Positions 16,015 to 50,660 of a stretch of 64,000 nucleotides of DNA are shown piece after piece. The stretch comes from Lophium mytilinum. Taxonomy: Eukaryota. Below the pieces are notes generated by a model. That model saw only the letters and a program-made list of their open reading frames with translations. It was not told the origin of the DNA and did not search any database. The stretch is taken from contig MU004193.1 in assembly GCA_010093605.1 (NCBI GenBank), positions 62,001 to 126,000 of the forward strand. Reading direction: 5' to 3'. The position numbers were made by a program, and so were the translations under genes. The first letter of the stretch is position 1. Each line of letters starts with the position of its first letter.

Positions 16015-16836
16015 CTATTCACCGGCGGCATATTTCTGCTCCTTCTGATCTCCAGAAACTTTTTCCAGTCGAGACACTTCAGAAAGCCACTCCTTCGCCA
16101 GCCGAAGAGTGTAATCGGAGTTATCTGACATGTTTTGAGACAGCTTCCTCGCTTCCAGAACTTGATCCTTCGATATAGTCTGCAGCTCGCCGCATTCTTG
16201 GCGAAATCTCCATGACAGGCGATATCCCTGCGACTTGAACATGACTATTTCCGCTTCCTCGAACGACATGGCAGCGTTTTTGAAGCCATTCGATGCCGCT
16301 GCAAAGTATCGAGATGCCTCAATTAGGCTTTTCGACGCTTCCTGATAGGCATCGTGTATCTCCTTGGCGCGAGCAGCTGTCAAGAACGTGTCCTGTCGAT
16401 GGACTTCAGGATAGCTCTTGAAGTCGGTAGGGTAAAAACCCAACGCAATCTCATGCGCTAGTGAACCCTGATCTTTCCTGATCCAGGCTTCGTTGTAGAT
16501 ACTCCTTGCCCAATCGAACGTCCGGGCGGCCTGCAGAGCGGAGATCGGCTGGGCTTGGGCAGTGGGCTTGGGGCTATGGAAGGATGAAGGCATTGCAGAG
16601 CCAGGCGTTGGATTAGACTGCTGCGCAAGACGGCGGTCCAGTTCGGCCCGCTTTGATGCGTCAATCAGTATTTCGTAAGCATTCTGAATCTCCTTGAACT
16701 TCTCCTGCCCAATTTCACGATGAGCAGGATCTGCGATCCTATCCGGATGGTACTCTAGGCATAGCTTGTGGTAGGCCTTCTTGACTGTGCCAAAGTTTGC
16801 GTCGTGCGACACTCCAAGAATCTCGTACGGAGACAT
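16015..16836 (-). CDS. J-domain (DnaJ/Hsp40 class C) protein J1 with uncharacterised helical C-terminal domain
   Basis: PYEILGV...YHKLCLEYHPDR...FKEIQNAYEILID..KRAELD is a canonical J-domain with HPD. The C-terminal domain is shared with four paralogs in the window. Confidence 0.9.
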   Translation of the reverse strand: MSPYEILGVSHDANFGTVKKAYHKLCLEYHPDRIADPAHREIGQEKFKEIQNAYEILIDASKRAELDRRLAQQSNPTPGSAMPSSFHSPKPTAQAQPISALQAARTFDWARSIYNEAWIRKDQGSLAHEIALGFYPTDFKSYPEVHRQDTFLTAARAKEIHDAYQEASKSLIEASRYFAAASNGFKNAAMSFEEAEIVMFKSQGYRLSWRFRQECGELQTISKDQVLEARKLSQNMSDNSDYTLRLAKEWLSEVSRLEKVSGDQKEQKYAAGE

Positions 16837-17343
16837 CTTGACGCCCTTGAAGATGCAGGTCGAGCGTTGATAGTTTCTGAGCGGTTATATAGATGGTGAG
16901 AGCAGCATTGTGAGAGAATGATCATTCTGCAACATTTTTTCTAGATTGTAGAAGATTGATGGAACTCGGTTCATTGTTGGCTCAGAATCGACGGTACATG
17001 AGCTGTCAAAAGCCTACCAGTGGAGATCCGGAGATAGCAACGAGCGGCACGGCGTAGCCAAAGCGCTGCTTACTCGACAAGCTCTTTCACTCGTATTTAT
17101 ATTATCATTGCATCACAGAGAGAACACAGACGGGAGATGTTTGAGTAAGGAGCAAAAGCGTAGTTCTTCATCTTAGTTGTCTAAGATAGTGACTAATTAC
17201 CAGATTTTCTGACAGTTAGGGCCGCTACGCGACGGTGAGAGATACTTGCCAACATTAGAAGGAAGATATGATATTGACAGTTATGATCGCGGGAATTACT
17301 TAAGCATGACCAGAGGATGCAAGCGAGGTCCAGGAGCCGTAAT

Positions 17344-18140
17344 TCATCCAGCTATGATGATTCCCAGTGCTTCCTTCTTGGCTGTACCCTGCTGCAGGAG
17401 CCTGAGGACCATGTGCATCCACCCAGTAGCCAGGTCAGAGAGGCTGAAATGCTCCAATTTTGTTTGCTTGTGAAGCTTCGTGAGCTCTAGCTCTTGCTTG
17501 TGTGATTCTCTGCCCCACTTTGCGCACTCCTCGAGGGTCGTTGCATTTTGTGTAGCTCTTGCGGCATCCGCAAAATAGCGCCTCGAGTTGCTAAACTCAT
17601 AACTTGCCTTACGGAAACTGTCGGACGCTACCCAAACCAAAGCTGATGCCTCGCCGTATGCTTTCTTGGTCTCAATGGCCTTCTTCACTGTCAAACAGGA
17701 GTCCTTGTAGTAATGGATCGGAGAGCTGGGGTAATCCAATGGTCGGAGTTTGATCGCGTCCTGATATTTTTTACGACCCAGGGCGCTTGTAAGACGACCT
17801 TTCGAATACCAATGGCTTCCTAGTTCCAAGCGCTCGTCTACGAAAAACTGGTTGGGGTCGCGACGAAGTTTGTCGCGAGTATTAGGGCTCTGCGGGGCAT
17901 CGGGGCAGATCCACCAGCTTGCCGTGGGAGGCGTCGATCGAGCTCTGCGCGTTTGACCGGATCACTAAGGATCTCCCAAGCGCTCTGTACTTCCTTGAAT
18001 CTCTTTTCTCCTTTCTTTTGAAAAGCAGGATTAGCTATCTTGTCTGGGTGGTGCTTCAAAGCCAGAGCGTGGTATGCTCTGCGGATTACTTGGGGAGTTG
18101 CATCCTGGGGGACTTCCAATACGGTGTAGGGGGTTGACAT
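17344..18140 (-). pseudogene. J-domain paralog J2, frameshifted near 17900
   Basis: J-domain with HHPDK in ORF 17838-18140. The homologous C-terminal domain (PLDYP...YGEAS...LSDLATGW) is in another frame that stays open up to ~17910. No plausible intron was found. Confidence 0.7.
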
Positions 18141-18457
18141 GATGAAACTGTTTGTTGGATCTGTTGGTGGACCCTTGTCGAGGGCCGAAGGGGAGATCTA
18201 TACAGACTAGTTCAGGTAGCTTTGTAAGTGCACGTTTACCACGAAGATCTTCCACATATACGACCTCCTCACCACACCCCCACGGCCGTCAACGTTGTGC
18301 AGCATCGTCTCGTGTTGTGTGCTCACAATGTGCCAGTCTCGAAGAATATAAACCTCCTGCTCATTGAACGTCTGCATTTCTTGAAGAACTTTTCCGGGCA
18401 CAAACCCCCAAGGAAGCCAACCGACACACACAAATACCAAGCTCCCACCCTCTCAAT

Positions 18458-19791: not shown

Positions 19792-20397
19792 TACTTGGTT
19801 TTGCTATCTTTAGACGCATCTTGGGAGATACGAACGGTACCTGACACCAATCCCAAGTGACACTGCGATCGAATGAATGCCATGCGCGCAAGCGTAGATA
19901 CGGGGCCGAGACTGCTACGCTGCCGGACTCCCAGCACCCACGAACCACAATCCTTGTTGACTTAGGTAGCGATACCAAAATCACACATTCAACTTTTCCA
20001 ACCAAACATCATTATTGCCTCTTCTTTTTGCACTATGAAAGCTCTTGCACAATGACTGCAAATGTCTTGACATAACCAGTAGCCAGGACGCAGCTAGATT
20101 CACTTGCATGCCGTATGAATGAGAAGGAATGCTTGGGCGATTAAAGCGTGAATGCTAAGTACCCATATCGTTCACCTGCCCTTCTGAATACGGATATATA
20201 AATTAGACTTGCGATCGAGCTCTTTCCTGGATCACCCCACAGCTCCCACGCCAAGCCCACTTCATATCCACAACCACCGCGCTCCCATACCACCAGCCAT
20301 ACCTTCTCAAGGACCAATACTACTTTCCGGGCTACTATATCCCTAAAATTCAACCCTGCAATAATTTCAATACTTTCTCCACCCATTTCAACACAAG

Positions 20398-20922
20398 ATG
20401 TCCCCGACTTCCAGGCTCGAGGCTGCGGGGATGGATGCTCGCCAGTTTCAGAAGATCACCACTGGATTGCCCTATTCTGAAACGACTACGGTCTTGGACG
20501 TTCGAGTGGCAAAGGATTTCCAGGAATCCTTTCTCCAGGCCCAGCGCAAACTTGCTGACGACTGGCAGCTTCTCCAGTGGACGGATATGAAGGACGTCTG
20601 GGACGATCTCTGCAAAGTAGCGCAGCCCAAATGGGACTATTCTTTCGAGATCCTTTCGCACGCGGCGAATGGTCATGCCCAAACAACAGAAGGCCGAATC
20701 AAGAGCAGAATCTTACAACGACAACGATGGCTGGAGCAGAAACCTCGAGGACCACCTCCGAAGCCTTATTTCGGCTCTACAGACCAGGACGACGCAGACT
20801 TAGCAAACTTCTGGTCTGGGAATATGGAGCCCAGGAGGCGTACCCGAGACCTGTTTCCCAGCAAGGAAAGCATGGACAAGGCTAAGGCGAAGGTTTTCCA
20901 ATGGCTCTCCGAGCTTCCGTAG
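20398..20922 (+). CDS. orphan family B, copy 1
   Basis: TATATAAA at ~20195. MKDVWDDLCKVAQPKWDYSFEILS aligns with copy 2. Confidence 0.75.
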   Translation: MSPTSRLEAAGMDARQFQKITTGLPYSETTTVLDVRVAKDFQESFLQAQRKLADDWQLLQWTDMKDVWDDLCKVAQPKWDYSFEILSHAANGHAQTTEGRIKSRILQRQRWLEQKPRGPPPKPYFGSTDQDDADLANFWSGNMEPRRRTRDLFPSKESMDKAKAKVFQWLSELP

Positions 20923-21679
20923 CTGGTTGCCCCCAGAGCTCTTGCACTGAGATTATCTCTCAAAAGGGGGTCACATAGCTTGACGCGAAGGCGTAAGAAG
21001 AGAGGTGGACAGTTTTACTAGATCTATGGAGCATCCAAGTACGTGCGCTAATCACTTCTCATTTCTAGATATTCAGGATGAGGCCTTGGACAGTCTTCTC
21101 ATGCTGCGTTGGCTCGTCGAGTAGTTGTGTTCAAAAGATATCGAGTCTAGGTAGATACACAGGCGCCAGACGAATACACAATATTGAGCGCGTAGATGCT
21201 ATGATAGTCAGCTTTTGCACGCACTTCTGATGTCTCGACAAAGTATCTCAACTACGGACAGCTAAGTTTCTCCTACTTGAACTGTGTGAATAATCATGAT
21301 TGGTTGAAGCCGCTCTAGTCAACAATGCGTCAATTTTGAAAGCTCATCTAGACTGATAAGAGGTAATCAAGGTCAATGGACGATGGCCCAGGAGAAGTCC
21401 ATAGAATGTTTTACAGGTATTGTACACTTCCAGGACTCCTTTTCAGCTTGTGATTCGTTACCAATGTTCCCGATATTGAGCCTTACTTGCAGTGAGTAAG
21501 GCCACCCGATCTGTGTTTATCCACACTGAAACATTGTTGAATAGTTTGAGAGAATGGTGACTGGGATAATGCTTCATAGTGCACTCTAAACGTGCTTTGT
21601 GTTCACACAATGTGTCCCAATAGGTAATATATGGTCAACAATCCCAGTTACCACTCGTTATCAAATCAATCTTCCAGAT

Positions 21680-22270
21680 ATGCCATTCCATACAAGCCAT
21701 AATCCAGAAGACACCATGTCGTTGCTCTCACGCCCCAACACGCCCCCAAACATTCCCATGTTCAGATATCTCGAAGGATGCCGCGCAGCACGCCATCAAA
21801 ACTTGACCGACCAGTGGCTAATGATGTACCAAGATCCAACTATGAGAGATATCTGGCCAGATCTTTGTGCCATAGCACAGCCGAAGTGGGATAGATCTTT
21901 TGAAGAACTCTCGGGATTCATTCACCGACGTCAAATGACATCCAATGATCACATCAAGTACAGGATGCGGCAACTGAATGCATGGCGATCTCAAGAGCCG
22001 CGCACTTCCTTCCCACCGCAACGCATTCTTGGACCCTGGATTTCGCCTGAACAAGATCCGGACTGGGCAGACTTTTGCGCGGGTCCCATGGAGGGCGATC
22101 CAAAAGATATGTACCCAGATATGCAAAGGCAACTTGCGGGCAGAATCGCAGTCCTGAAATGGCAAAAGCAGCTAGAGAAAGACCCACCGGCAGAGTACGT
22201 TGTTGCTCCCAAGGTCGTGAAGCGAGTTCTGAAGCGAGCCAGGGGAGAATCCTCCCATCGTTTGGGCTAG
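21680..22270 (+). CDS. orphan family B, copy 2
   Basis: MRDIWPDLCAIAQPKWDRSFEELS; C-terminal VLKWQKQLEKDPPAEY links it to family A. The start may instead be 21716 (CACCATG). Confidence 0.75.
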   Translation: MPFHTSHNPEDTMSLLSRPNTPPNIPMFRYLEGCRAARHQNLTDQWLMMYQDPTMRDIWPDLCAIAQPKWDRSFEELSGFIHRRQMTSNDHIKYRMRQLNAWRSQEPRTSFPPQRILGPWISPEQDPDWADFCAGPMEGDPKDMYPDMQRQLAGRIAVLKWQKQLEKDPPAEYVVAPKVVKRVLKRARGESSHRLG

Positions 22271-22734
22271 GCTCTTGTACACCCCCTTGATTGAACACTT
22301 GGTAGCTGGTCATACTGACCGCTACCCATGAGACCTGGATACCAAGGATCGAACCTAGGAGATTATGCCTAGTTCGAATACCCTGAGAAATCAATTTTAA
22401 CCCCTACAATAACTTTTCTTCTTCTCCGGCATGTGACTAGTACGTGAATACCGAAAGCAACCTCGATGATCTTTGTTCCTGACATTCTGTTCGCCGGCGT
22501 AAGACCAAATCGCTCCCCTCCAGAATCTCCAGTTTCATTGTCAGGTAACACGACGAGGATTATGTAAGAACAATCGTGTAAGTCTGATGCGTCTACAATG
22601 ATTCATCCGTACCTGTGATTTCCTGATCATGGGTATAACATGCTCCAAACTCACGCGCACAGACAGGAATTTTGCATCATCAAGATTGTAGTACTCGCAC
22701 ACACGAAGCGTTGAAGTGGGTACCTTATTCCACC

Positions 22735-23262
22735 ATGTTCTTCTTCAACCCCACCCAAAACCCCCTGCCCAGCCCCTTGATGCCCCTGCCTAGCACCCTA
22801 ATGTTCGCATCCACCCCCGAAGAACGCGACCAGATCGAGCGCGAGGTAGCCTCAATGGGCACCGAAACGTTGCCAGAGTGGTCCGACATCATTCGCGCGC
22901 GTTATCGACAGCTCTGCCAGGACCTGATGACGCGTGGCACACCTCTGCCTCTGAGTAGAGTAGAGATCTCGAAAGCGTTCCATTGGTGTACCCTCGAAGA
23001 AGCGAAGCAAGAGCCGCGTCTTCGTGCCCGTCTTCGGCAACTGAAAGCTGAGCACGAGAAGGCACACATGCGGGAACAGACGAAAATGATAACCGCACAA
23101 CACCCAGCACAGCCCTCAAAGAAGGCGAAGAAGGGCCGTGAGATGGACAAGCCGTTTTGGGCTACGTACTTGGTCTTGCTAGTCCTCTGTCTTGTCATGC
23201 TTGATCGTGTCTTCGGGTTCAAGCCGTTTGGGAAAATTACTAAGGATGGATTCGAGGTCTAA
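22735..23262 (+). CDS. orphan family C, copy 1 (C-terminal transmembrane anchor)
   Basis: IRARYRQLCQDLMTRGTPLPLSRVEISKAFHWC aligns with copy 2. Hydrophobic FWATYLVLLVLCLVML near the C-terminus. Confidence 0.7.
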   Translation: MFFFNPTQNPLPSPLMPLPSTLMFASTPEERDQIEREVASMGTETLPEWSDIIRARYRQLCQDLMTRGTPLPLSRVEISKAFHWCTLEEAKQEPRLRARLRQLKAEHEKAHMREQTKMITAQHPAQPSKKAKKGREMDKPFWATYLVLLVLCLVMLDRVFGFKPFGKITKDGFEV

Positions 23263-23828
23263 ACTGGATCTTGAATCAATGATTCTGGGGGTGTGGGTGC
23301 AAGTACATTTACTTGTCTCAAGTGTACACGAGAGAGTATAGCCAGTAGCAAACTAAGGTGATCTTGCGCTCCAAATACAAATCTTTGCATATTGCATGTA
23401 CCTTTTTCCTTCTGCGAGTCAGGTGACATGTATTGCGATGGAGAGATGGATGAAGAAACTCTACCTCATCTTTCAAGACCAATTTCCTCGCTCAGTGTCA
23501 GGACTATCATGTACTCATTACGAACCCAAACCCCGAATAGCCATCTCATTTGTTCGTCGCTTGAACCATCGAAACATTGTGCACAGAGACCGCGGCAATA
23601 GCAACCCTACTAAGAGCATTTTGAATATATGTAATGACAGTATCATAACCTCACAATGCCCCTGAACCTCGTCGTGAAAGCGCCCTCTGCACTGTATATA
23701 CTGAGCCGTCTTCCTCCAAGATCAGCCTCATCACACCAGACCAACCCTGCTTCGTCTTTTGACGTTGTTCCCTCAACCCTAACGATATCTCAGGGGTTCC
23801 CCGAATCGACGGTACATACCTTCCCAAA

Positions 23829-24779
23829 ATGTCCCCCCACTTCTCCGTCGGAGCCTTCGTGCGAACTAGTGCGGAGCGCCAATTCATGGAGCTTGAGGTC
23901 GGTGAAGAAGCTGACAGCTGCTTCCCAGCCGAGACCTCCGTACGAACCAGCGAAGAGCGTCAATTCATGGAATTCGAAATCGACGAAGAAGCCCCCACCT
24001 TCTCCCCAGCCGAGAACTCCATGCTAACTAGCGAACAAGGCCAAATCAAGGAGCTCGATGTCGGCGAAGGAGCTTCTAGCTTCCCCCGAGCCGAGACCTC
24101 CATACTAACCAGCAAAGAACGCCAACTCATGGAACTCGAGATCGCCGACGAAGCGATTCGCCACTTCCCCGAACACGGGGATGAGATCAAAGCCCGCTAC
24201 CAATGCCTGCTCCAAATGATGGCCAAAAACGGCTACCCCAAACCCGTCGAACAGCAGGAGATTGCCAATGCGTTCTACTTCTGCCTAATGCAGCTGAAGC
24301 ACAAGCTCGATAACCAAGGTAAGGAAGAGTATACCGACGACGACGACGCCATCTACAGTTCAGAGGAAGATTATTCTTACTGGGCGGACGATGAGAGCGG
24401 GTCGGATACCCTCGTTGACGGCTCCGAAAGCGACGAGACCGATCCAGAGACACTATTTGGCGATTCCGATAGCGATGGGATGAAGAAACGCAGGGACGGT
24501 CAGCGTCCCACCCCCCGGCATCGTCCGCCTTGGGGTTACTACCCGCGCTACCCGCAAAAGCGCGATGGCCAGCAGCAGACGCAGGCGGTGCAGCCCAGGC
24601 CCTTGACTCCAAGCGAGGAGGCGCTTCGTGAGCGCGCAGTCATTGTGACTTACTGGGCGTGCCTTATCATAGCGGTGCTGCTTTTTTCAAAGCTTTTCGA
24701 GATAGTCTCCGGGGCTCGTGGGACCTTTAAGATGTCAGCGAGCATTATGTTCGTCTTGTTTCTCTTCGGTCCCCGTTAG
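23829..24779 (+). CDS. orphan family C, copy 2 (4x27-aa repeats, acidic tract, C-terminal TM segments)
   Basis: IKARYQCLLQMMAKNGYPKPVEQQEIANAFYFC; hydrophobic VIVTYWACLIIAVLLF and ASIMFVLFLF. Confidence 0.75.
   Translation: MSPHFSVGAFVRTSAERQFMELEVGEEADSCFPAETSVRTSEERQFMEFEIDEEAPTFSPAENSMLTSEQGQIKELDVGEGASSFPRAETSILTSKERQLMELEIADEAIRHFPEHGDEIKARYQCLLQMMAKNGYPKPVEQQEIANAFYFCLMQLKHKLDNQGKEEYTDDDDAIYSSEEDYSYWADDESGSDTLVDGSESDETDPETLFGDSDSDGMKKRRDGQRPTPRHRPPWGYYPRYPQKRDGQQQTQAVQPRPLTPSEEALRERAVIVTYWACLIIAVLLFSKLFEIVSGARGTFKMSASIMFVLFLFGPR
23859..24180 (+). repeat. coding tandem repeat, 4 x 81 bp
   Basis: VRTSAERQFMELEV.. / VRTSEERQFMEFEI.. / MLTSEQGQIKELDV.. / ILTSKERQLMELEI.. with a 27-aa period. 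Confidence 0.9.
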
Positions 24780-25783
24780 CATGGGAAGCTGGGCTCCTAT
24801 GTTTCATTGGGGTGATCCGAGCTAGTGTGGGAGAAGCGTAATTATGCGTGTTTAACATGTTCGTTTTGACTAGCGCACAGAATTTCTTAAGCTTGCCTGG
24901 TTCGGATTTGCCTTCTTGTCTGTCATGAGATCCCATAACTTTTCGACAGTTCCCTCGCTGGTGATTGTGACTTGAGCGCCCGTGCTGTGAAAATACTGTG
25001 TTTCCATAGATCTGCTCTCGGTGCACGTAGATATCCTGGTGGTAGCGTGGATCGCAACTCAGGCCCACCAAGCTTCATTTTCCAACACGGGCAGGAAATG
25101 TAAGGACCTGCATAGGGCTGGAAGGCATGCACACCTCGCCTCATATCTAGCGAGAAAGACATTGTTGAGTGTATCAAGGCTTCGCTGAAGTCGAAACTGA
25201 CATTGACGCGATTACCAATGCGACTAGCGCTGTAGTCACGTGGCGCAAGCCTACAAATACAAGTACTCCATATCAAACAATTGCGAATGCGGTCGCTGTT
25301 CGTCTACATCAAGGTGAAGTCTGAGCTCTCCGAGGCTAGAAGATGCATGCTGAAGAAGTCCACTGCGACGTCAAGAGGCAATGAAGAGGGACGAGGCCGT
25401 CGCCTCTGGCTCGGTGTTGTGCCATGACTTGAAGATCGATGAAAATGATTTATGAAATGTAAGATCATTAACACTGCAACATGATGCAAGCACGGAGAAA
25501 AGATGGTTCTTCTTACGACGTGGGGGGCTTGAAATGGGAATGGTGATATTTGATGGTATAGAACAAAAATAGTCCTTTGCGACAGCTTACCCACGGATAG
25601 TCCCTAAATCAACTCCTCGCTACCTAAACACTTTTACATGAATGATCAACCCGGACTAAAACGTCGGTCTAGTCACAGGCGATCGTGTGGTTCCGCATAA
25701 CATAAGGTCGCATTCCGTCTCTTCCTCAGACTATTGACTCCCGACCCGATAAAATCCCTGATGATGCAATATTCGTACTTGCT

Positions 25784-26693
25784 TTATGCCAGCTCTGTTC
25801 GTTCCACGTTGGGCATCTCATAGGCCTGTTGCGGCGGCGCCGGTTGCGGCGTATGTTGATACGCCGCCTTCGGATCTTGTAACGGATACACCCCGCCACC
25901 CTGGTGGGCCACGCCCGCAACGTTCCCGCCCTGCCCGCCGTACTGCCATTGCGCGAGCTGCTTTTTGTGCTTGCGATGTTGGAATAACAGTCCTGCTAAG
26001 CTTGCCACGAGCAAGATACCCAACGGGATGCCGACTCCCGCTCCGATTGCCGCGTCGTGCCCGCCTGAAGTTGACTTCACAGTCACAGTGGCTGCGGCCG
26101 GTGCGGACGTCGCAGAGGTTGGCGATGCGGTAGATTGGGTCCCGGACGCGGTGCTAGCGGATGCTACCTGCTCGAGAGGACCCCAGTTGGCGATTACTTT
26201 GCCTACGTTGAAGGTGGCGTCCTCGCCGTAGCATTCGTTGGCGGTGGCGTTGAAGCTCAGGCAGCAGAACTGGCTGTCTTGGCTAGGATTGAGGATGCCG
26301 ACGATGGGACAGGCTGAATTCGTGTATGCTGTAGTGAAGTGTGTTAGCAGTGTCGTCTCAGATGGCTGCAATGCTTGAGATTGTACTTTTGCGACATGGT
26401 CCAGGGCAAGATGAGGCTCCCCAGCTCTTATCTGTGCAAGAGTCGCGGTAAAGATATCCTGGGTTCGTCTGTCCTTGAGCAAAGCAGAGTCCATTGTCCA
26501 AGCAGACCTCGTTGATAGGATCGCAACAGTGGCTGTGGCCATCGGCGGTGTCGGTGTAGCAGGGCCTGTGGTTGGTCCGAGGGTCTCCATTCGGCACGTA
26601 GCAGCTGGTTGGCACCTTGATGGCCTCGACGGGGACCAGAGTCGCGAGCAGAAGAACGGCTCCCGCCATGGGTAGCGCAAATCGGGTAATCAT
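25784..26693 (-). CDS. Mid2/Wsc-like type I membrane protein (signal peptide, Cys-rich ectodomain, S/T stalk, one TM)
   Basis: Exons 26693-26387 and 26328-25784 join in frame across a GTACAA..CTAAC..CAG intron. Motifs CYVPNG..CC..CLDNGLC..YRDSCTDKSW..CP..C and TM AAIGAGVGIPLGILLVASLAGLLF followed by RKHKK. Confidence 0.85.
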
Positions 26694-27789
26694 GGTGTTT
26701 CTCAAGATTCCTACAGCCGCAGGAAGTCGTGTGAAGGATGAGAATTGAAAGCAGACGCTGAGACGGGATCCCACAGTCTTTGAGTCGCACATGAAACCCC
26801 ATCATACGCCCGTGGTAATTGTCATAGCGGGCAGTGCCAGCCCTGCGCCTGCAACCTTGAATCCTTCGCGTCTCATCGTGGCGGTAGCGTTGGTCTAAAA
26901 GTGGCTCAGCCGTAGAATTAAGGGTTGTGAGCCTATGATGTAGGCTGTTGGTGTTGTATTTGCGGGGGCAGCTAGAAGGCTATTTACGGCCCCCACACGA
27001 GCCGCAGCTTTGGAGTCGATCGACAGAGTTAGGCCTCCCAGCTCCGGCTCTTCACAGCCTCACCCGGGACGCCGGCGCTTAGAAATCCTTCCATCGTAAT
27101 TCCACACGACTAGTCTTTACTTCGCGGCCCCCAGAAATAATAGCAGTACTGGCCTATCTCTGGAGGGCGGGTTTTCAGCGGATTTGAGTAGCGAGAACAG
27201 CTGTAAACGTACCCGAATTGCATGAGCCTTGAAGCCTGTGCTATTTGCCCGAAACGCCAAGAAGATCAACATCTCACTTTCGATAGCCCGTCTATTTTAC
27301 CTTTTTCAGGCCCCTGCTTCTCGTGCGTATTGCCTTTGTAGGATGCTGCTTACCCTTGTAGAGAAAATGTCTTGCGGACGCTTATTAGTCCGTGGGGCCA
27401 ATACTCGGCCTGATCGCTACACGACCTTCGTACAAAAGTAGTAACTGGGATCGTATGATATATGAAGAGAGGCATCGGGTGTAACGAATGGCCTATTACA
27501 AGAGCTATAACGACAGCTACTCAACGCAATCATATCCTTGGACGGCCCCGCCGGTTCTTCATTGTAGTCTCAAGGAGATAGCGGATTCACGAATCTCGTC
27601 GCATTCTTAGCCCTCCTGTAATAGAAGATTACTCATCTCGCCATGAATTGTCCCAACGGGTACATGTTTCCTCGTTGCCTACAATATTGAGCTCTCTAGC
27701 CCCTTGTTGACGATCCGGAGAAGGGCAGCTATGCGGGAAAGGACGAAAAGAAGCGCAGCTGAAGCTTTCGAGTCTGCTTGACTTATACT

Positions 27790-30147
27790 TCACGCCATCG
27801 GAACCCTCTTCCTCACCGGCTCAGCATCCCAAAAAGCCTCAATAAGACAAAACCCCACCCCCACTCTATACGCAACTCCATCCCTCCACTCCAAAGCCAG
27901 CACATCGTACGCTTGCCATTTGAGCTCAAACGAATAGTCGTTGAAATACGACGCCGCACCCCTCTCATCGTTTATCTTCCGCAGCTTCTCTCTTTCCGCG
28001 TATCCTTCTCTTAAACCTAGTACATCAGCATCATCTTCCGGCGGGTCCTCCCAAGCTTCATTATTAACGCCATACGCCGTTCTAGATATCGCGGCGAACT
28101 CAATACATCTAGGTTCTACATCAGAGCTGCCATCGCCGTGAAAATACGCGGTGCCGCAGAAGCGGCCGTAGCGATCGAAGAGCGTTCGCGAGCTTACGCT
28201 GGGATCTGGGACGCGGTCTGTTTCTGTTTTCCTGATTAATAGGACGCCTTGTCCAGGTTCAGTTGATATGCGCGCTGTGTATGCCTTAAAAGTCAAGATG
28301 GGGGAGTTCTCCTTCAGAGACCTCCGATGTTGCATTGCAGCAGGGACCGGTTTTGATACTGGATGCGTGAATAGGATATTCGGTTTGCCGGGTCTAAAGT
28401 AACCGGGCGGAGCGTCAATGTCCAAGGGTTTGCGCTGCCATGCCACGCCGTCGCTAGTCTCCAAGCCTCTTTCTGTTCCGCGCCACTCGCTCGTGGTGAA
28501 CTCTGTTTCGTCTTCGGCGTCGACGAAGGCAATCCGGCTGAAATGGGTTGATTCGAAGACCGGCATGACAATGGGGCCTCGCCAACCTGCCCAACTCCAA
28601 CTGGGGAACAGCTCATCCCCCGTAGCATCGTCGAGTCTGCGTTCTAAGTGCTGAATAGGACGCCATGGAAGCGCAACATCAAGTTCCGAAGATGGCATAC
28701 CATAAAGGAAATCCCGACAAAAGTCCGCGCGCATGACGTTGAGGACTCCTTCGAAGGCTCTCAGCGTATCCGTTTGGTAAGTAAGCGTCTTACCGGAGTA
28801 GAGGTGGACCGCAAGAGCGAAATGCATTAATAGTGATATACCCCCTGAAGCTCTGACAAGTGATCCTCCCGTAGGAAACCCTCGCCCATCCGGCAAGCCG
28901 TCGTCCACAGCGTGATGAAAAGGCTGGTGGATGTCTTCTGTGGTGACTCCGTCTTCGCTCTCGTATTGAATACCATCGCGGGCGAAGAAGATCAATCGTC
29001 TTGATAGGGCGTGCTCCTGGTATGTCCATCCACGCGTAGGCCAGTCCTTTGGACCGGAATTGGGAAGTATTATTTGGCGGTTAGCTAGCGTTACACCGTG
29101 GACATTGACTACGTGTTGCTTCCATCGGCCACTAGTTAGGCGCACTCCTGGGAGACCAGCGTGGCAGCTAGAGCCATACATAGCCACTATTGTGACCATA
29201 GCGGATGTGTATATCTGATCCATGGCATTGATTTGGACCAACTTCATAAAATCGTCGTCTTGAACAATACAAAGACTGTCCACCCAAAGGTAACGTTCAC
29301 CGATGCGGGACACAAAGAGCATCGCATCTGCTATTGTCAGAGGAATTTCGGCGTCAGTCGAAGCTAGACTTCCTGGGCATCTGAGGCGACTATCATTTGC
29401 TTTGGTGTTCTGGAAATGCTGAGGCCCACCCCAAACATAGCTCAGGGCCAGATACCTGCAGCTCTGAGATCCTTCGATCAGGACAATGCATTGATCACGT
29501 ACGTCAATAAGCCGGAACCCGTCCGGGGTGTTTCCTGAAGTGCCTGGATCTGAAAGAGTAGGTGTGAATTGAGTTACCCACTCTCGTGCGTTTTCGAAGT
29601 TGATCTGCTCATGGACCCGAGCACCCTCATATGGCGTGCGATCCTCGCGGAGCCTATGTATGAAGATGTGATCAAATACATGGAAGGATTGCGGAATGAT
29701 TCTAAGCGAGATGACTAAGTCATAGACCTCTTCTTCAGCACGTGTGTTTCTGCTGGTGCCTAGCGAGCAGAAAACCAGTGGGAAGGGACAGGCATCGATG
29801 TTGATAGACTGCAGAAGGTTGGGAATAGTTTCGTACTTGGCAGCGACTGCCGAGATGACAAGATGGCAGAATTTGCACGTGTTTGACTTGGAAAAGATAT
29901 CGCTCAGTAGTCCGAGAGGGACTGCAGGCATTTCAGGGATGGCATAATCCGTCCATTGACCTTGCCAATACAGCTTTACATGATGAGGCTGATCGTCTTC
30001 GAGAACTCCTGAGACGTGCCGATCCCAATGTTCGCGGTCGAGATCGTGGTGAAGAAGCCATTCGAAGTGAATTTCGCGACAGATCGAGCAAAGGTTTAGG
30101 TCGTCTTCGGTGGAAGATGGAGCACGATACCATGGCTTATCAGGCAT
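27790..30147 (-). CDS. HET-domain protein (heterokaryon incompatibility, TOL-like)
   Basis: HET motifs RLIDV, YLALSYVWGG, PLTIADAM, YLWVDSLCIVQDD, QINAMDQIY, TRGWTYQE, FPSWSWAGW. Confidence 0.93.
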   Translation of the reverse strand: MPDKPWYRAPSSTEDDLNLCSICREIHFEWLLHHDLDREHWDRHVSGVLEDDQPHHVKLYWQGQWTDYAIPEMPAVPLGLLSDIFSKSNTCKFCHLVISAVAAKYETIPNLLQSINIDACPFPLVFCSLGTSRNTRAEEEVYDLVISLRIIPQSFHVFDHIFIHRLREDRTPYEGARVHEQINFENAREWVTQFTPTLSDPGTSGNTPDGFRLIDVRDQCIVLIEGSQSCRYLALSYVWGGPQHFQNTKANDSRLRCPGSLASTDAEIPLTIADAMLFVSRIGERYLWVDSLCIVQDDDFMKLVQINAMDQIYTSAMVTIVAMYGSSCHAGLPGVRLTSGRWKQHVVNVHGVTLANRQIILPNSGPKDWPTRGWTYQEHALSRRLIFFARDGIQYESEDGVTTEDIHQPFHHAVDDGLPDGRGFPTGGSLVRASGGISLLMHFALAVHLYSGKTLTYQTDTLRAFEGVLNVMRADFCRDFLYGMPSSELDVALPWRPIQHLERRLDDATGDELFPSWSWAGWRGPIVMPVFESTHFSRIAFVDAEDETEFTTSEWRGTERGLETSDGVAWQRKPLDIDAPPGYFRPGKPNILFTHPVSKPVPAAMQHRRSLKENSPILTFKAYTARISTEPGQGVLLIRKTETDRVPDPSVSSRTLFDRYGRFCGTAYFHGDGSSDVEPRCIEFAAISRTAYGVNNEAWEDPPEDDADVLGLREGYAEREKLRKINDERGAASYFNDYSFELKWQAYDVLALEWRDGVAYRVGVGFCLIEAFWDAEPVRKRVPMA

Positions 30148-31030
30148 GTCTCAAGGAAAGCAGAGCCACGAAACGCGATGCTACAGTGACAGGCCACAAG
30201 TCTGGGCACACTGGCACTCCACTGCTTAGGGTGCCCCACGGTATTCTGAAGATCCAAAAGGTGATGTCAAGGTTCAAGCAGTGTAAATTGGACTGCTTCT
30301 TAATTAATTGGTTGCTCAGCAGCCGGGCTGCCCCCGACAGTGGTATCGAGTGAGCAATTTGGATCCTAGCTGTAAAGAGTCAATGTGCCCAGACTTGAGG
30401 CCTAGTATTGTAGCGACTAGTGTCTGTAGGGTCATGGGGAGCATGTTAGGAGTGATTGTGGGAAAGGTGCTGGCGAGGTTGGAGGTCCGAGTGCGAGAGG
30501 GTAGTGAGGAGCAAAGGGCAGCTTATGCTCGTGTTTTAAGTACCCTGGCATTTTTTTCCACCGCGCGTCTCAATTCGCCGGGCGTTCGAACGATTGCGCG
30601 TGGCAGTGCAAGACCCTTCGCTAGGTAGAATATCCTTCGCATTAATTACAACTACTATAGGCAAAAACACAACAGAATCTTTCATTTCAAAGATGGTGTA
30701 GAATTAAAGGGAATAAGTTAAGCGTGGTCTATATATTGTCTTGCATGTTCGTCGTTGATGGTATAACCTCAGGATGGCTATCTGGCCAGGCTAGACAAAC
30801 GGTCGGGAAGGATCGACCTTGGGGAGATCCACACTAGCTGCAATCAAGTCCAGGAGATGCTACCAAACGTCCAGGCTTGGCCTGGTTATCATTCCAGGCC
30901 TTCAGCAGGTAAGTATAGACGAAAAAGTGCAGATTCCCAAATGGAAAGCAATTAGTTTTTATGTGAGAGCTACATCCTGCCCATGTCCTCGCCGATCTGA
31001 AAATGAACTATGGCCCTAGGATATCCGTCA

Positions 31031-31844
31031 CTAGCCAGGCTGTGCTTGTTTCGTGAAGGAGAATCTTTCCTTAGACAACGGTGCATACCGAAGGTACGGC
31101 TTCACTGCATGATGATCGGGGAATAAAGTCTTGGCCTCCTCGTTGCTAACGCTCGGATGAATGATGACATGGTCGCCCACGTTCCAGTTGACGGGCGTTG
31201 CGACACGGTGCTTATCGCTAGCCTGAAGAGAGTCAACCACACGGAGAAGCTCTGTAGTGCTACGCCCCGTCGAGGCTGGATAGGATTGGATGAGGCGAAT
31301 GGTCTTTTTGGGATCGATGATGAAGACGGAGCGAATCGTGAGTGCCATGCCCCTCGAGTCCACGTTGCGCATGTCCTGGTAGTCAAGCCTATTCCCAGGT
31401 CAGCCCGAGTTTTTGAAATTCATTAGAGGCAGGTTGTTCACATGTCATAATCAAAAGCGATCTTTCGGTCTTTGTCACCAATAATAGGAAACGTCAATGC
31501 ACATCCAGCAATTTCGTCAATATCATTGATCCATCCGCCATGAGTCTCGACCGTGTTCGCAGAGAGGCCGATCAGTTTGACACCACGCTTGGTGAACTCT
31601 GGCGCGTGCTTCGCCAGAGCGGCAAGTTCAGTCGTGCACACTGGTGTGTAGTCTTCAGGATGAGAAAAAAGGATTGCCCATGCATCGCCGATCCATTCGT
31701 GGAAATCGATGGGGCCGATTGTCGTCTCAGCCTGGAAGTTTGGGGCAGCGGAGCCCAATCGAAGGCTAAATGGCAAAGGTCAGCATGTACTGTACCGAGC
31801 CTTAATAACTGCACCTACGTGGTCGATTTAGGCTCAGCGGCCAT
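31031..31844 (-). CDS. PRX1: 1-Cys peroxiredoxin (Prx6 class)
   Basis: LFSHPEDYTPVCTTEL active site, plus YPASTGR and ATPVNW. Exons 31844-31819, 31765-31442 and 31388-31031 join in frame. No mitochondrial presequence. Confidence 0.93.
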
Positions 31845-32112
31845 TGTGAAGTATTTACAAGTGTCTGTTGTTTGATGAATACCTAGAGAAATGAGCCAAG
31901 ACAGGTTGCCACAGTTGATACTTCCAAGTTTATTTGCCGTCGCGATGACGCAATGTCGGAGTTTCGGAGCAACGACTTCCGCATCTTACCGCGAACTTCG
32001 TGCCACAGACGTGGCTAAAGACATATCAATTTCTGTGTGAAGCACACCTCTATCAATAGTCATGTCGTAGATAACGATACAGTAGCGGCGAGGACCTCTG
32101 GGCTGACTCGCA

Positions 32113-38100: not shown

Positions 38101-39111
38101 AAGATGGAGCTTCATCTCATCCCGTTCGATGCCAACAAGATGCTCCAAGAAGTTATCCGGTCAATCCCCATGGATAAGCGGCAGCGAATAAACTCGAAAG
38201 ACGTTCAGGTTGTACAAAAGATCGACCTTCCTCAAGCTTTGCTCAAGGGCGATTCTCTGCGCCTCCACCAGATCCTCGGCAATCTCATAAACAACAGCAT
38301 GAAATTCACGGAAAAGGGAACGGTCACGATTGGAGCCAAAACCGAATGGGAGACCGACGTTGCCGCACATCTTACCTTCTGGGTAGAGGACACGGGGATT
38401 GGCATTCCAACCCAACAAGTGCACAAACTCTTCAAGCCTTTCAGCCAGGCCGATGCTAGCACAGCGCGTAAATACGGTGGCAGCGGCCTCGGCCTCAGCA
38501 TCTGCAAGTCCCTCATCGAATACATGCACGGCCAAATCGCGCTCGAAAGCACCGAGAACGTCGGAACCACCGTCTCATTCTCGCTCACGCTCCCGAAAGC
38601 CGACTCGAAAGCACTGGTAGGCGAGGACCAACCGGACGCCGGTATCCCATCAAGCTCTAACGACGTCGAGGACGTAGCAACAACCGCTTTCACTAACCTC
38701 GCTTCGCTGCGCAGTGACGAGTTGCGCATCTGCATTGCCGAAGACAACCCCATCAACCAAAAAATCGCGCTTCAGTTCCTCAAAAAACTTAAGTTTGACG
38801 ACGTCGACGCCTACGACAACGGGCTCGTGGCCGTGGAAGGCATTCGGCAGCAGGCGCGAGAAGGGAGGCCGTACCACATCGTGCTCATGGACGTGCAGAT
38901 GCCGCTGATGGACGGCTATGAAGCGACGAAGCTGTTGCGGCAGGATCCGCTCGCGGCGGTGAGGGGCATCTTGGTGATTGCGGTGACGGCGAGTGCGGTG
39001 CAGGGGGATAAGGAGAAGTGTTTGGCGTCGGGGATGAATGATTACCTGGTCAAGCCGGTGAGATTGGCGGTGTTGAAGAAGAAGATTGGGCAGTACGTGC
39101 AGGTACCGTGA
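32113..39111 (+). CDS. group X hybrid histidine kinase (S/T-kinase-like, AAA/P-loop, GAF, HisKA, HATPase, receiver; Chk1/Mak2-3/PhkA type)
   Basis: Exons 32113-32240, 32297-34500 and 34562-39111 join in frame. Motifs HGEIRGDAFH and MSPEQTGR, GIAGLGKT, H-box FLANISHELRTPLNGV, NLINNSMKFT, DTGIGI, GGSGLGLSI, and receiver AEDN..LMDVQMP..KP. Confidence 0.95.
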
Positions 39112-46371: not shown

Positions 46372-47054
46372 GCGCTCACGCTCGGGAAGGATCCTGATAT
46401 AAAGGCTTCACACGATATCGGCGTTACGCACCAAATCTGAACTCGTTTGCATCTCACACAAAAGGGTATTCCTAGTCACAAGACCTCTTGACAATTGTAC
46501 CCAAAATCACGTTGTTAGAATTGACACAAGTTTGTTCTTTCATATCCACCTGGGGTCTAACTGCGATAAACTTGAAATGGCTTAAGATAGAACAAGCACT
46601 TCTAAGATAAACCATTACAGCGATGTATAAGACTACCAGCCAGATCCTCTCCAGACGGCGGGGCTTTTCTCTGTCCAGATCCTATCATTCCACGAGAAGG
46701 TTATTAGCTGTACCGAGGAGACCTGGGCCGGTTTAGCCAGGTCCCATGATACGAGATGCAAGTGAATACGTCGAAGCTCTCGCATTGCACTGGTACAACC
46801 TCTTTGCTCGTTGTGCCGTAACAGGAATCTATTTGGACAAGTATATGCCTTCACAATGCTGAAAATCTACCTTTCCGCCTCACCAACTTACTTGGCAGTC
46901 TTCAATCTCGGTCCTTAAATACCGGTCGAGGTTCACGTATTCCATGATCCTGCACAGCTTCCAGTTCTCCGATCAAAAGCACCGCAACTGCATCCGAATC
47001 AGTCGCTCCGCCTTCCGTACTCAGAGCTTCTCTTGCCCAGCTTCCCGTGTCTCC

Positions 47055-47642
47055 ATGTCCAAGATGCCGGACAAGTCTATTCCCACAATTTGTGTGACCG
47101 ACCCTGGAGGACTCACTAGGGAAGCCGCTGAGGTCGAGGAGATGATTAATACTCCTCGTGTCACCGCCGAGCGAGCCATTTGGACTTGGAACCAAGCCAA
47201 CACTATATATGTGAAGGCCCAACAGGATCTCAAATCTGGGGCTCAGTGCTTCCTTGATGCGAAACAGTATATCCCATCCGACTTCGCCGGACACCCTAAT
47301 CACCAGAAATCAAACCCTACAGCCACACGAGCCTCGGAGATCGCAGAGCTCTACAAGAAGGCTTCAACGGTGATGATCGTCGCATCCGCAACCTTGCGTA
47401 GTGCGCTCAAAGGGTTTCAACAAGCATTCAAGCTCTTTCAAGAGGCCTTGAAGGATATGCCAAGAGTGCATGTTGAAATGTGCGAGCGCACAACTACGTC
47501 AGCAAGGGAGCAATACAATGAAGCCCAGGAGCTCTTGTTGCCAGTGAATGCGGAAGTCAAGAAGTTACATGTGCTGGCCATGGCGTGGGACGCTCAAGCA
47601 CATGCTTTCGCGAAGACGGAGCGCAACGGCCAGGATGATTAG
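47055..47642 (+). CDS. J-family paralog J3 (C-terminal domain only, no J-domain)
   Basis: IPSDFAGHPNHQKSNPTATRASEIAELYKKAS...LHVLAMAW aligns with J4, J5 and J1. Confidence 0.8.
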   Translation: MSKMPDKSIPTICVTDPGGLTREAAEVEEMINTPRVTAERAIWTWNQANTIYVKAQQDLKSGAQCFLDAKQYIPSDFAGHPNHQKSNPTATRASEIAELYKKASTVMIVASATLRSALKGFQQAFKLFQEALKDMPRVHVEMCERTTTSAREQYNEAQELLLPVNAEVKKLHVLAMAWDAQAHAFAKTERNGQDD

Positions 47643-48329
47643 GAGCTCCAGGCTCGATCGTTCTTTTCTCCAACCTCCCTTCTCAACACAACGGCATTCA
47701 GGTATCGTACACTGAGTAGTCTGAGTGAACCTCAAATAGCCGCTGAACGGTTGGATATGGACCCCGACATGAGGATCCGATAGAAACGATCTCGTCGGAT
47801 ATCGCTTTCTTTGATTTTACTACATGGATGCACTTTACTGATTATCAGAAACTCTGGTAACCAGTTTCGCTGCTACAGCACTTACTTCAACACACACTCT
47901 GTGTTAAGACACTTTCCCCTTAACCGTTTCCTTTATACTCATAATGTAAAAGATCCATTTCCGTTCCTGGTACCTCACTGCAAAAGTCTCAAGCTCCATG
48001 TCCATCAAATCTTCCGTTCGTATATCTTAATTCATTACTCGCCGCCATGCTAGGGAAAGCCCCACAGAGCCAGTCCTGTGGGTCATAAACATTCACTATA
48101 AGATACGCGCTTCCCATGGTACCTAAACAATACTTTCTTTCATGCTTCCAGATTCACTGTGTACACATAACTGCGATGTATATAAACCTCTCCACGATTA
48201 CGCTTGCTAGATTTCATTCAAATCAACCACTGCCCCCGCCACCACAACCACCACCACCCGCCAGCCACCAACAGAGTTCCTCTACTCAGTCTTTCCCTCC
48301 ATCACATATCAGAAAACTCTGTTCTCATA

Positions 48330-49181
48330 ATGTCCGACCCATATTCCATTCTCGGCGTTGCACAGGATGCAGACTACGACACTATCAAGAAGGCCCACCA
48401 TGGGCTCTGCATGGAATTTTACAGCAACGCGCGGAACCCTGCCCTCCGTGTGGTAGCCCATGATAAGTTCAAGCGGGTACAGGAGGCTTGGAAGGTAGTT
48501 TCTAATACCTATACACGTGCCGAACTCGATCAATCTTTACGGCCTCCTGAGAAGATGGACGCGGCTTCAAAGACCGAACACCCGTACAATCTTCGTTCTG
48601 TTGCGAAAGCTACTCTCAGCTTCAATGCTGGGCTCGCTCCCAACGTTCAAACTGCCCAGACCATTGGCCCTGCTCCATCGGCTGCTCAGAAGGCCCCTGA
48701 AAACTGGGAGATTGCTAAAAAGGCACGCGAAGAAGCCTGCACTAAGCTTCACACCGGGATCAAACAGTACGAGGAGGCTACAGACCTCATTCCGACGGAC
48801 TATCCAGGTCACCCTGACATCCACCGCTCCAAGCCTTCGGCCGAGCGTGCCAAGGCTGTTTCGCAGGCTTACAGTAAGGCCTCGAAACTGGCTACGGCTG
48901 CATACACGGACATCCGTCTGGCGAAGTCTGGACTTGGAGGAGCTCTGGAGCTTTTAGAGCAGGCAAAGGATGGGATGCTCTCAGGGCTAATCTCAGCATC
49001 TCATCTCAACGAGTGTAAGGAGATGATCATTCACCTCCGAATTCACGATACTGAGGCTACGGAGTACATGGCGATGAGCAATGCTGACTCTAGGAAGTTC
49101 CACGTGCTCGCAATGGCGTGGCTTGCTGAGGCGGATGTTCTCGAGAATGGAGGGCGGGACGATGGCGAGGATGAGTTGTAG
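48330..49181 (+). CDS. J-family paralog J4 (degenerate J-domain lacking HPD)
   Basis: MSDPYSILGVAQDADYDTIKKAHHGLCMEFYSNA...KFKRVQEAWKVVS...RAELD; then IPTDYPGHPD...FHVLAMAW. TATATAAA at ~48179. Confidence 0.85.
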   Translation: MSDPYSILGVAQDADYDTIKKAHHGLCMEFYSNARNPALRVVAHDKFKRVQEAWKVVSNTYTRAELDQSLRPPEKMDAASKTEHPYNLRSVAKATLSFNAGLAPNVQTAQTIGPAPSAAQKAPENWEIAKKAREEACTKLHTGIKQYEEATDLIPTDYPGHPDIHRSKPSAERAKAVSQAYSKASKLATAAYTDIRLAKSGLGGALELLEQAKDGMLSGLISASHLNECKEMIIHLRIHDTEATEYMAMSNADSRKFHVLAMAWLAEADVLENGGRDDGEDEL

Positions 49182-50063
49182 GTTCACGGATTGAACCTCG
49201 CGTCTAATGGATTTCTTCTAGCTGGACAAGACCCATAAATGGGTTTGATGCTAAGCCTCGCGTTGCTGTAACTGGCGTAGGCGCTCTTGAAATTTAGGTT
49301 GCACTTACGATTTGGCTGCGTTCTGTTCCGGATCACTAGCTTACAATGTTAGAGCTCGACAAGAGAGGCCCACCTTTGACATTGGATAAACGACCCCCCT
49401 GATATTGGAATAGTATAGCTCTGCTGATTATGAGAAATACTGGTAGCCAGTCTAACTACTATAATGTATCTGACGACACATGTTCTCTTGTACCCACTTC
49501 GCCTCTTCACCTGCATTATATCAAAAGGGACTTTGCTTCTCTACGTTTACACACTCACTGTGCACCCTTTAGCGGTTCTTGTTATAACCCCATCACAAAT
49601 GCACACTCTTTGTGCGTTCCAATCTTGGACTTGCCCAACTGATTTCCCGTGCTGGAGATGTTACACTGGGGCTTGTGGAAGTAGCAAGCGCCCAGTTCTT
49701 GGCCTTGGAGACTGGATCAAATGCCCAATGAAGTCACGTGACCGTGTTAGAAATCATGGTAGTAATTTCGAGCTCGCTCAAATTCTAAACGTCCTGATAA
49801 GTAGGAGTAGATAGCAAACGGTTCAATATACTTCTTTGTCCAGATAAGAGGGAAACAGACGTGTTTTATAAAGAGGTTCTTAATAAGTATAGCCCTTCAC
49901 CTAATTTCTCTACGCTAAGCTAATTTCAGATCCGCACTTCCTTTTCTAGCTCGTCTTGGCACACTATCTGCAGCTCCTATAGCTACCTGGTCACATTCGT
50001 TCTCTGTTGCCATCGTAGTCACGCCTCTTGCAACTTCTACAGAGAATACACTCGCTCGTCAAT

Positions 50064-50660
50064 ATGACGAACCCGTCCATCCTATCAAAACCTCTCCAAC
50101 ACACTCCCCATGAGGCCATCGAGAGCCCTCCCCACCCCAAACCAACCAACTCATCCGCTCCGCCTTCCCCACAAGCCGCCCTCCAAACCATGCAAAAAGC
50201 CGCCACAACCTACGCCACCGCCAGCCATCTCAACAACCTCGCCTTCCAGCACCTCCACAACGCGGACGCCCTCCTCCCCACCGACTACCCCGACCACCCC
50301 GACCTCCTCGAACCTAACGAGCTCCCCACACCTACCCGCGCGCTAGAGATCTCAGAGGCCTACCGCATCGCATCACGGTTCGCCACGAACGCGTCGGGGC
50401 GTTTTCGTATGGCGAAGGAGAGGTTTGAGGCGGCGAATATGCTGTTTGAAGAGGCGAGGGGGATGATAGTGGCTGCGGTTGCGGGGGTGGAGCTGGAGGA
50501 GGTGGAGGGTGTGGTTGAGGGGATGAGGATGCGGGGGGAGCCGGCAGGGGATCATGCCGGGACTACGAATGAGAGGGCGAGGGAGTGGCATGTTTTGGGG
50601 GTTGCGTGGTATGCGGAGGCTGTGGTGCGGGGGGCTGAGGAGAGGGGGGGCGGGTCCTGA
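50064..50660 (+). CDS. J-family paralog J5 (C-terminal domain only)
   Basis: LPTDYPDHPD...PTPTRALEISEAYRIAS...WHVLGVAW. Confidence 0.8.
   Translation: MTNPSILSKPLQHTPHEAIESPPHPKPTNSSAPPSPQAALQTMQKAATTYATASHLNNLAFQHLHNADALLPTDYPDHPDLLEPNELPTPTRALEISEAYRIASRFATNASGRFRMAKERFEAANMLFEEARGMIVAAVAGVELEEVEGVVEGMRMRGEPAGDHAGTTNERAREWHVLGVAWYAEAVVRGAEERGGGS

What the first reader, a model, noticed from the sequence alone, without database searches (positions are those of the whole stretch)
16015..50660. Five-member J-protein family with a novel helical domain and graded loss of the J-domain
Seen: all five share a ~150-aa Ala-rich helical domain with PxD(Y/F)PxHP, (P)TxxRAxE(I/V)xxAYxxAS and HxLAxAW motifs. 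J1 has an intact HPD, J2 has HPD but is frameshifted, J4 has a J-domain with HPD replaced (FYSNA), and J3 and J5 have no J-domain. Known: HPD is required to stimulate Hsp70 ATPase. Inference: the HPD-less and J-less copies may be dominant-negative or Hsp70-independent partners that compete for the same client. Such rapid paralog turnover suggests conflict (drive, incompatibility) or reproduction-related evolution.
Basis: partly seen in the sequence, partly recalled or inferred. Interest (0 to 1): 0.7.

Follow-up and report, generated by a model that had tools for sequence, protein, structure and literature searches.

The report
Fast-evolving fungal J-protein family shedding J-domains
A fungus carries a small, fast-changing family of Hsp70 helper genes built on an unnamed three-helix rod; some copies lost the Hsp70-activating part yet stay intact, which offers a natural test of why such 'dead' helpers are kept.

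Summary
Five paralogues share a ~160-aa Ala-rich domain with no Pfam family, predicted as a long three-helix bundle (pLDDT 94). J1 has HPD; J4 reads YSN; J3 and J5 lack a J-domain. J2's frame break is also in the DNA-run contigs, though the public model splices round it. The quoted motifs are a consensus, not shared by all five. The genome is Lophium mytilinum (source names); the family has at least ten loci, with a second cluster on another contig. Outside homologues were found only in Mytilinidion resinicola, where a J-less J3 counterpart exists. J3 is 56% identical to it, against 95% for a control J-protein, yet motif columns are better kept and reading frames stay open. Best reading: a lineage-specific, birth-and-death family of class C client adaptors whose J-less copies keep the rod for Hsp70-independent binding. 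Dominant-negative action or genetic conflict is possible but untested: no client, expression or binding evidence. The scan's earlier notes showed no match to this family.

The parts
16015..16836 (-). J1: intact intronless ORF, 273 aa; J-domain with HPD (aa 3-67), disordered linker (aa 79-93), three-helix rod (aa 100-270)
16885..16891 (-). TATA-like box 55 nt upstream of the J1 ATG
17838..18140 (-). J2 5' frame: ATG, J-domain with HPD, stop after 100 aa
17344..17961 (-). J2 3' frame: the three-helix rod, in another frame than the J-domain
17838..17914 (-). 77-nt GT-AG intron used by the public J2 model (P0125); no RNA support seen; more likely the coding linker with a one-base frame break
47055..47642 (+). 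J3: J-less member, 195 aa; short N-terminus shared with M. resinicola P0126, then the rod
48179..48186 (+). TATA-like box 151 nt upstream of the J4 ATG
48330..49181 (+). J4: 283 aa; J-like domain with HPD replaced by YSN (48420-48428), linker, rod
50064..50660 (+). J5: J-less member, 198 aa; Pro-rich N-terminus, then the rod

Best explanation
A Mytilinidiaceae-specific family of class C J-domain proteins evolving by birth and death. The ancestral form is J-domain (HPD), flexible linker, then an alanine-zippered up-down-up three-helix rod. By the predicted topology the PxD[YF]xxxP loop, the start of helix 2 and the LAxAW end of helix 3 meet at the tip farthest from the J-domain. Shown: architecture, paralogy, motif conservation, fast rate. 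Inferred: HPD members tether Hsp70 to a specific client bound by the rod. In the J3-J4-J5 tandem array the Hsp70 link became dispensable (HPD lost, or J-domain deleted) while the rod stayed under selection, so these copies act as Hsp70-independent binders (holdase, scaffold or decoy), probably of diverging clients and in a restricted condition or stage.
For: Rod fold pLDDT 93.9, helices 2-32, 51-98, 103-152; J1 model has two confident domains and a low-confidence linker, pTM 0.61. Window group and C18/C5 group are homologous over 151 columns (hhalign 91%, E 1e-6). All 9 J-domains of the family form one clade among 30 rows (83/92, rough). 8 of 11 loci carry HPD, so J-bearing is ancestral. Purifying signal: pN 0.45-0.57 below saturated pS 0.67-0.78 in 10 of 10 pairs; J3/P0126 identical at 27 of 38 family-conserved columns against 48 of 100 others (p 0.012), J4/P0127 21 of 36 against 33 of 111 (p 0.002). 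Under simulated neutral change of 0.1 per site the frames of J1, J3, J4, J5 stay open in 6%, 13%, 8%, 26% of 500 runs. The J-less state is shared with Mytilinidion. Precedents: plant DnaJD/E/F (PMC13493703), Plasmodium PHIST/RESA (PMC1431722).
Against: No client, localisation or expression evidence. With the looser column rule the motif contrast is borderline (p 0.051 and 0.072). Both Mytilinidion models have gaps inside helices (about 21 and 13 aa), as intron patches over broken frames would give. 3 of 11 Lophium loci are broken. The overall J3 rate equals what neutral change of about 0.3 per site would give (53% identity). The fold match is generic, so 'client-binding' rests on class C architecture alone.
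Confidence: 0.5

Rival explanations
1. Relaxed, nearly dispensable duplicates on their way out. The family had a function in the past; present copies drift, and HPD loss and J deletion are steps of decay, not adaptations.
For: 3 of 11 loci broken; J4's J-domain branch is 1.1 against 0.21 for J1; about 12-fold faster than the one control gene; Mytilinidion models have gaps; no J1 counterpart with full-length similarity among 514 hits (best 120 shown); neighbouring orphan pairs behave alike.
Against: Four long open frames are unlikely under neutrality (product of the four rates at d = 0.1 is about 1.5e-4); motif columns are preferentially kept between species; TATA-like boxes within 300 nt in 6 of 12 candidate genes against 259 of 2188 background windows (background includes coding DNA, so weak).
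Confidence: 0.25
2. Conflict system. HPD members act on a target, and HPD-less or J-less paralogues antagonise them by binding the same client or pairing through the rod, as in a poison-antidote, incompatibility or anti-parasite race.
For: Very fast divergence with open frames; clustered paralogues in graded states; a HET-domain gene lies between the two arrays; Pam16 inhibits Pam18 by J-J pairing (PMC13254874).
Against: Rods differ strongly in sequence and charge; the arrays are 29 kb apart, separated by housekeeping genes; no allele data; fast rate is also what relaxed selection gives; no paper links DnaJ to spore killers in the library (0 hits), and the one HET-related hit read (10.1101/721753) only lists a DnaJ gene.
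Confidence: 0.17
3. The rod is a diverged member of a known bundle family (MIT, BAG or a TPR-derived hairpin) and works as that family does, for example binding ESCRT-III tails or Hsp70's nucleotide-binding domain.
For: MIT chains at Z 8.3-10.9 (4p1n: Z 10.9, rmsd 2.3, 106 aligned; 3eab: Z 10.0, rmsd 2.0, 89 aligned) and BAG-domain chains at Z 8.4-8.9 (that 5aqf_B is BAG1 is recalled); weak Pfam MIT hit in J3 (E 0.027, 20 aa); helix 1 plus the PxD loop resembles CHAT-protein TPR repeats.
Against: All Z are below about 13, the tool's level for generic helical bundles; the top hit is a de novo design; Foldseek gave no match at E 0.001 or better; the MIT hit is 15 bits against a cut-off of 30 and in 1 of 12 members; the TPR likeness covers at most 27 aa, scores 5 bits or more in only 3 of 14 sequences, and is partly circular.
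Confidence: 0.08

Closest known systems
Class C (type III) J-domain proteins
   Same: A J-domain with HPD joined to an unrelated domain (definition in PMC13254874, passages); J1's J-domain folds like solved ones (6rzy_A TM 0.91 by target, rmsd 1.2).
   Different: The second domain has no family and was found only in two genera; the genes form fast-evolving tandem arrays.
Type IV / pseudo-JDPs (Pam16, DnaJB13, plant DnaJD)
   Same: Recognisable J-domain with HPD non-conservatively replaced, as in J4.
   Different: Those are old single genes with known partners; J4 is young and sits beside intact and J-less siblings of the same family.
Plasmodium PHIST / RESA family
   Same: Lineage-specific expansion of a helical, Trp-marked domain; some members carry a J-domain with altered HPD, most carry none (PMC1431722, passages).
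   Different: No homology claimed; PHIST is four-helix, exported, with the J-domain C-terminal. Here there is no transmembrane segment in the rod (max Kyte-Doolittle 19-mer 1.35 for J1-J5) and J is N-terminal.
HscB / Jac1 (J-domain plus three-helix bundle; architecture recalled)
   Same: J-domain followed by a client-binding helical bundle.
   Different: No HscB chain among the listed fold or sequence hits; here the bundle is about twice as long and joined by a disordered linker.
MIT and BAG three-helix bundles
   Same: Up-down-up three-helix arrangement, Z 8-11.
   Different: Helices 2 and 3 are about 50 residues long; no sequence-level membership.

Membership tests
Class C J-domain protein (J1, J2 and C18/C5 members) | J-domain over the Pfam DnaJ cut-off | tested here: met
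   J1 74.2 and J2 73.8 bits against 27.8; C18/C5 members 59.5-80.7 bits
Class C J-domain protein (J1, J2 and C18/C5 members) | HPD between helices II and III, basic helix II | tested here: met
   HPD in 9 of 10 J-domains examined (one is the doubtful L011), 3-5 K/R in the 14 residues before it
Class C J-domain protein (J1, J2 and C18/C5 members) | No class A/B zinc finger or beta-sandwich domains | tested here: met
   Only PF00226 in J1, J2, J4; all-helical model
Class C J-domain protein (J1, J2 and C18/C5 members) | Stimulates Hsp70 ATPase | not testable with these tools
   Needs an assay
Type IV pseudo-JDP (J4) | Recognisable J-domain with HPD non-conservatively replaced | tested here: met
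   48.5 bits, YSN for HPD
J-domain protein (J3, J5) | Has a J-domain | tested here: not met
   No Pfam hit; no remnant with a family profile in nearby frames
MIT domain | Pfam MIT score over 30 bits | tested here: not met
   Best 15 bits, 1 of 12 members
MIT domain | Three-helix bundle superposable on MIT | tested here: inconclusive
   Z 8.3-10.9, tied with unrelated bundles
BAG domain | Bundle with Hsp70-binding surface on helices 2-3 | tested here: inconclusive
   Z 8.4-8.9 only; no Pfam BAG hit at E 1 or better; surface not examined
CHAT-type TPR repeat | Tandem two-helix repeats | tested here: not met
   One partial half-repeat likeness; the model has three long helices, no repeats
Heterokaryon-incompatibility or drive locus | Alleles under balancing or positive selection with an incompatibility or killing phenotype | not testable with these tools
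   One genome only; no relatives held

The most novel reading that the evidence does not exclude
The intact and the HPD-less or J-less paralogues form a tunable switch under an arms race: the rod's tip recognises a fast-changing target (a nonself, parasite or germline protein), HPD members deliver it to Hsp70 for remodelling, and J3-J5 were selected as built-in antagonists. This would be a J-protein-based conflict module in fungi, and a case where HPD loss is shown to be adaptive.
Probability: 0.15. Interest if true: 0.75.

Novelty: new variant of a known kind. Interest (0 to 1): 0.45.

Why it matters
A 2026 review states that whether HPD-less J-proteins are accidents or selected 'remains enigmatic' (PMC13254874, section 7). 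This family holds intact, HPD-less, J-less and broken forms of one small soluble protein in one genome, with the J-less form shared by a sister genus, so the question can be tested by ATPase assays, pull-downs and population sequencing. It also adds an unnamed three-helix domain. The weight is limited: two genera only, no phenotype, and parallels exist in plants and Plasmodium.

Tried and rejected
Expression: no RNA holder was listed for 46800-50800. The one spliced RNA-like run (X3) gave contigs over 25542-26937 and 27641-30209 but none over J1/J2. Neither blank is evidence on expression. Homologue searches: J1 full length gave only J-domain hits, 22-33% coverage in the 120 shown of 514; the 12-row profile returned 2 own-genome proteins and missed its own members, so it is insensitive; the L011 C-terminal part gave 1 unrelated TolA hit; a metagenome scan with J3 confirmed 0 of 65 candidates; the Atlas gave no usable feature hit for J3 and only J-domain clusters for P0124; no PDB sequence hit better than E 0.03. 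P0128 (a shark repeat protein) and P0129-P0132 (CHAT/TPR repeats) were dropped as repeat-inflated. RIP as a driver: rejected, composite index is negative in 5 of 5 genes against +1.35 for window 1-9000. Subtelomeric position: no telomere repeat in the first 500 nt of the contig. J5's start (MTNPSIL) as a relic of J4's start: looks alike, but the DNA alignment was not significant (58 of 200 shuffles as good). L011 (C8) and the rod of L006-minus failed a leave-one-out test (27 and 13 of 200 shuffles as good); L011 is left out of the count. Arguing against the J2 intron from its donor alone fails, since both RNA-supported donors in the window also lack G at +5. dN/dS against Mytilinidion could not be computed (no DNA).
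Full report
Observation. J1 (16015-16836, minus, 273 aa) has an HPD J-domain. J2 (17344-18140, minus) has an HPD J-domain in one frame and the shared domain in another. J3 (47055-47642, 195 aa) and J5 (50064-50660, 198 aa) have no J-domain by Pfam or by a profile of the family's own J-domains run over 4973 nearby ORFs. J4 (48330-49181, 283 aa) scores 48.5 bits for DnaJ but reads YSN for HPD. The shared domain is far beyond chance: shuffle z-scores of 9 to 42 for all ten pairs. The three quoted motifs each fit only 2 of 5 genes strictly; looser forms of the first two fit all five.

J2. Contigs of both DNA runs cross the gene with no difference or gap (one sample, possibly the assembly's source), so the break is in the DNA. 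The public model (P0125, 239 aa) removes a 77-nt intron, 17914-17838. Against it: the only branch-like site is 48 nt from the acceptor, against 16-20 nt in the two RNA-supported introns; an earlier AG at 17848 would not restore the frame (the first-AG rule is recalled); the other four genes are intronless; and the read-through linker is as long as J1's. I put frameshift at about 70%.

Organism and family size. The window is G000:C13:62001-126000. Source names on proteins of this genome give Lophium mytilinum, Mytilinidiales. Own-genome searches found more J-plus-helical genes: five on C18, one on C5, one on C8. The C18/C5 group aligns with the window group over 151 columns (probability 91%, E 1e-6). 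L007, L010 and L006-plus passed a leave-one-out test (0 of 200 shuffles as good), L008 and L009 link by z 22.7 and L009 to J4 by 7.9; the rod of L006-minus and L011 failed. That gives ten supported loci, an eleventh by its J-domain and position, and one left out. Of the eleven: five HPD-intact single frames, three HPD but broken, one HPD-less, two J-less. The nine J-domains form one clade (83/92, bootstrap not settled). Single-protein searches found no further J-less copy, but these are insensitive at this divergence.

Range. A profile of the five rods against 1.84 billion representatives gave 11 hits: four own proteins, two from Mytilinidion resinicola, five repeat proteins that I dropped. 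P0126 is J-less and shares J3's private N-terminus; P0127 keeps the last two J helices and is nearest J4. Their locus tags are two apart. So J loss in J3 predates the split of the two genera, if orthology holds. The library shows one protein per 50% cluster, so closer Mytilinidion copies could be hidden; J2-J5 are singletons at 90%.

Fold. AlphaFold2 on the five-row alignment gives three long helices (2-32, 51-98, 103-152; pLDDT 93.9, pTM 0.85). Full-length J1 has two confident domains and a linker under pLDDT 50. Foldseek found nothing at E 0.001. The wide structural search gave Z up to 11.2, a de novo design first, then MIT, plakin, spectrin and BAG bundles, all within the range that means a common arrangement. 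Invariant alanines in helix 2 fall about seven apart (54, 64, 71, 78, 92), as in a tightly packed coiled coil. In an up-down-up bundle the helix 1-2 loop (PxD[YF]xxxP), the start of helix 2 and the end of helix 3 (LAxAW) lie at one tip, away from the J-domain; this is inferred from topology, as I could not view coordinates. The tip may be a binding site or only a structural cap.

Selection. Between paralogues synonymous sites are saturated (pS 0.67-0.78) and pN is 0.45-0.57; third positions are least alike in 10 of 10 pairs; no RIP signature in the genes. Between species, one control J-protein (P0135/P0136; Cwc23-like by my recall) is 95.2% identical, J3/P0126 55.6% and J4/P0127 39.8%: about twelve times faster for J3, on a single control. 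Neutral change of 0.3 per site would give 53% identity, but would rarely leave frames open. Family-conserved columns are better kept between the species (27 of 38 against 48 of 100, p 0.012; 21 of 36 against 33 of 111, p 0.002; borderline with a looser rule). So the frame and motif skeleton are under constraint while the rest changes at a near-neutral or faster pace. Relaxed and positive selection cannot be told apart without Mytilinidion DNA, and gaps in its two models may hide broken frames.

Mechanism. Most likely (0.5) the HPD members are class C adaptors that tether Hsp70 to a client held by the rod, and J3-J5 keep the rod as Hsp70-independent binders. J4 should be inactive towards Hsp70, since HPN or QPD already abolish stimulation (PMC13254874). 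Decay of dispensable duplicates is the main rival (0.25). Two unrelated orphan tandem pairs beside J1/J2 show that such arrays are common in this region; unchecked earlier notes on this genome report similar clusters, which I treat as leads only.

Literature. I read passages and all of section 7 of PMC13254874, passages of PMC1431722, PMC13493703 and 10.1101/721753, and only listings for the rest. Eight searches showed no description of this family; the library lacks most subscription papers, and I opened no supplements, so genome papers on these fungi may list the genes. Graded loss has precedents in plant DnaJD/E/F and Plasmodium PHIST/RESA. A sequence look-up in the scan's earlier notes found no look-alike; the genome look-up showed 8 of 93 notes, none on this family.

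Verdict. Real, undescribed as far as searched, a new variant of class C and type IV J-proteins with an unnamed domain, confined so far to two genera. Interest 0.45; the conflict reading has probability 0.15 and would deserve 0.75.

Noticed in passing
window 30181-30410: Short element with imperfect 29-bp terminal inverted repeats and TA ends, about 35 nt upstream of the HET gene's start; many contigs of both DNA runs pile on its end. Looks like a MITE (label recalled).
   Followed up: partly
window 20365-22270 (+) and 22639-24779 (+): Two further orphan tandem pairs (35% over 129 aa; 37% over 62 aa), without Pfam family over cut-off and with no other copy found in the genome.
   Followed up: partly
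window 13367-15049 (+): Secreted-looking 526-aa protein with Cys-rich repeats, a basic linker and, after an LEKR site, a Trp-rich basic amphipathic tail; no Pfam hit, singleton in the collection.
   Followed up: no
G000:C18:1055736-1128197 (L006-L009): Second cluster of five family genes, including a head-to-head pair; L009 has a frame break and L006-minus a TAG inside the J-domain where its partner has Gln. Not checked against reads.
   Followed up: partly
G000:C8:2081368-2082680 (L011): J-domain, Pro-rich linker and Ala-rich helical tail with a likely 206-nt intron; similar layout but not shown to be a family member.
   Followed up: partly
window 1-9000: AT-rich block (GC 0.31-0.36) with a RIP-like dinucleotide index of +1.35 and no ORF of 100 aa.
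   Followed up: partly
window 26329-26386 and 31389-31441 (-): Both RNA-supported introns have donors with A at +5 (GTACAA, GTGAAC) rather than the usual G (consensus recalled).
   Followed up: no
window 27790-30150 (-) and 32289-39111 (+): A HET-domain gene covered by an RNA contig, and a kinase-AAA-GAF hybrid histidine kinase, lie between the two J arrays.
   Followed up: no
G000:C10 (L017, L037) and C3/C10 others: Two paralogous J-proteins 6 kb apart on C10 each appear to carry further degenerate J-like repeats after the HPD domain.
   Followed up: no
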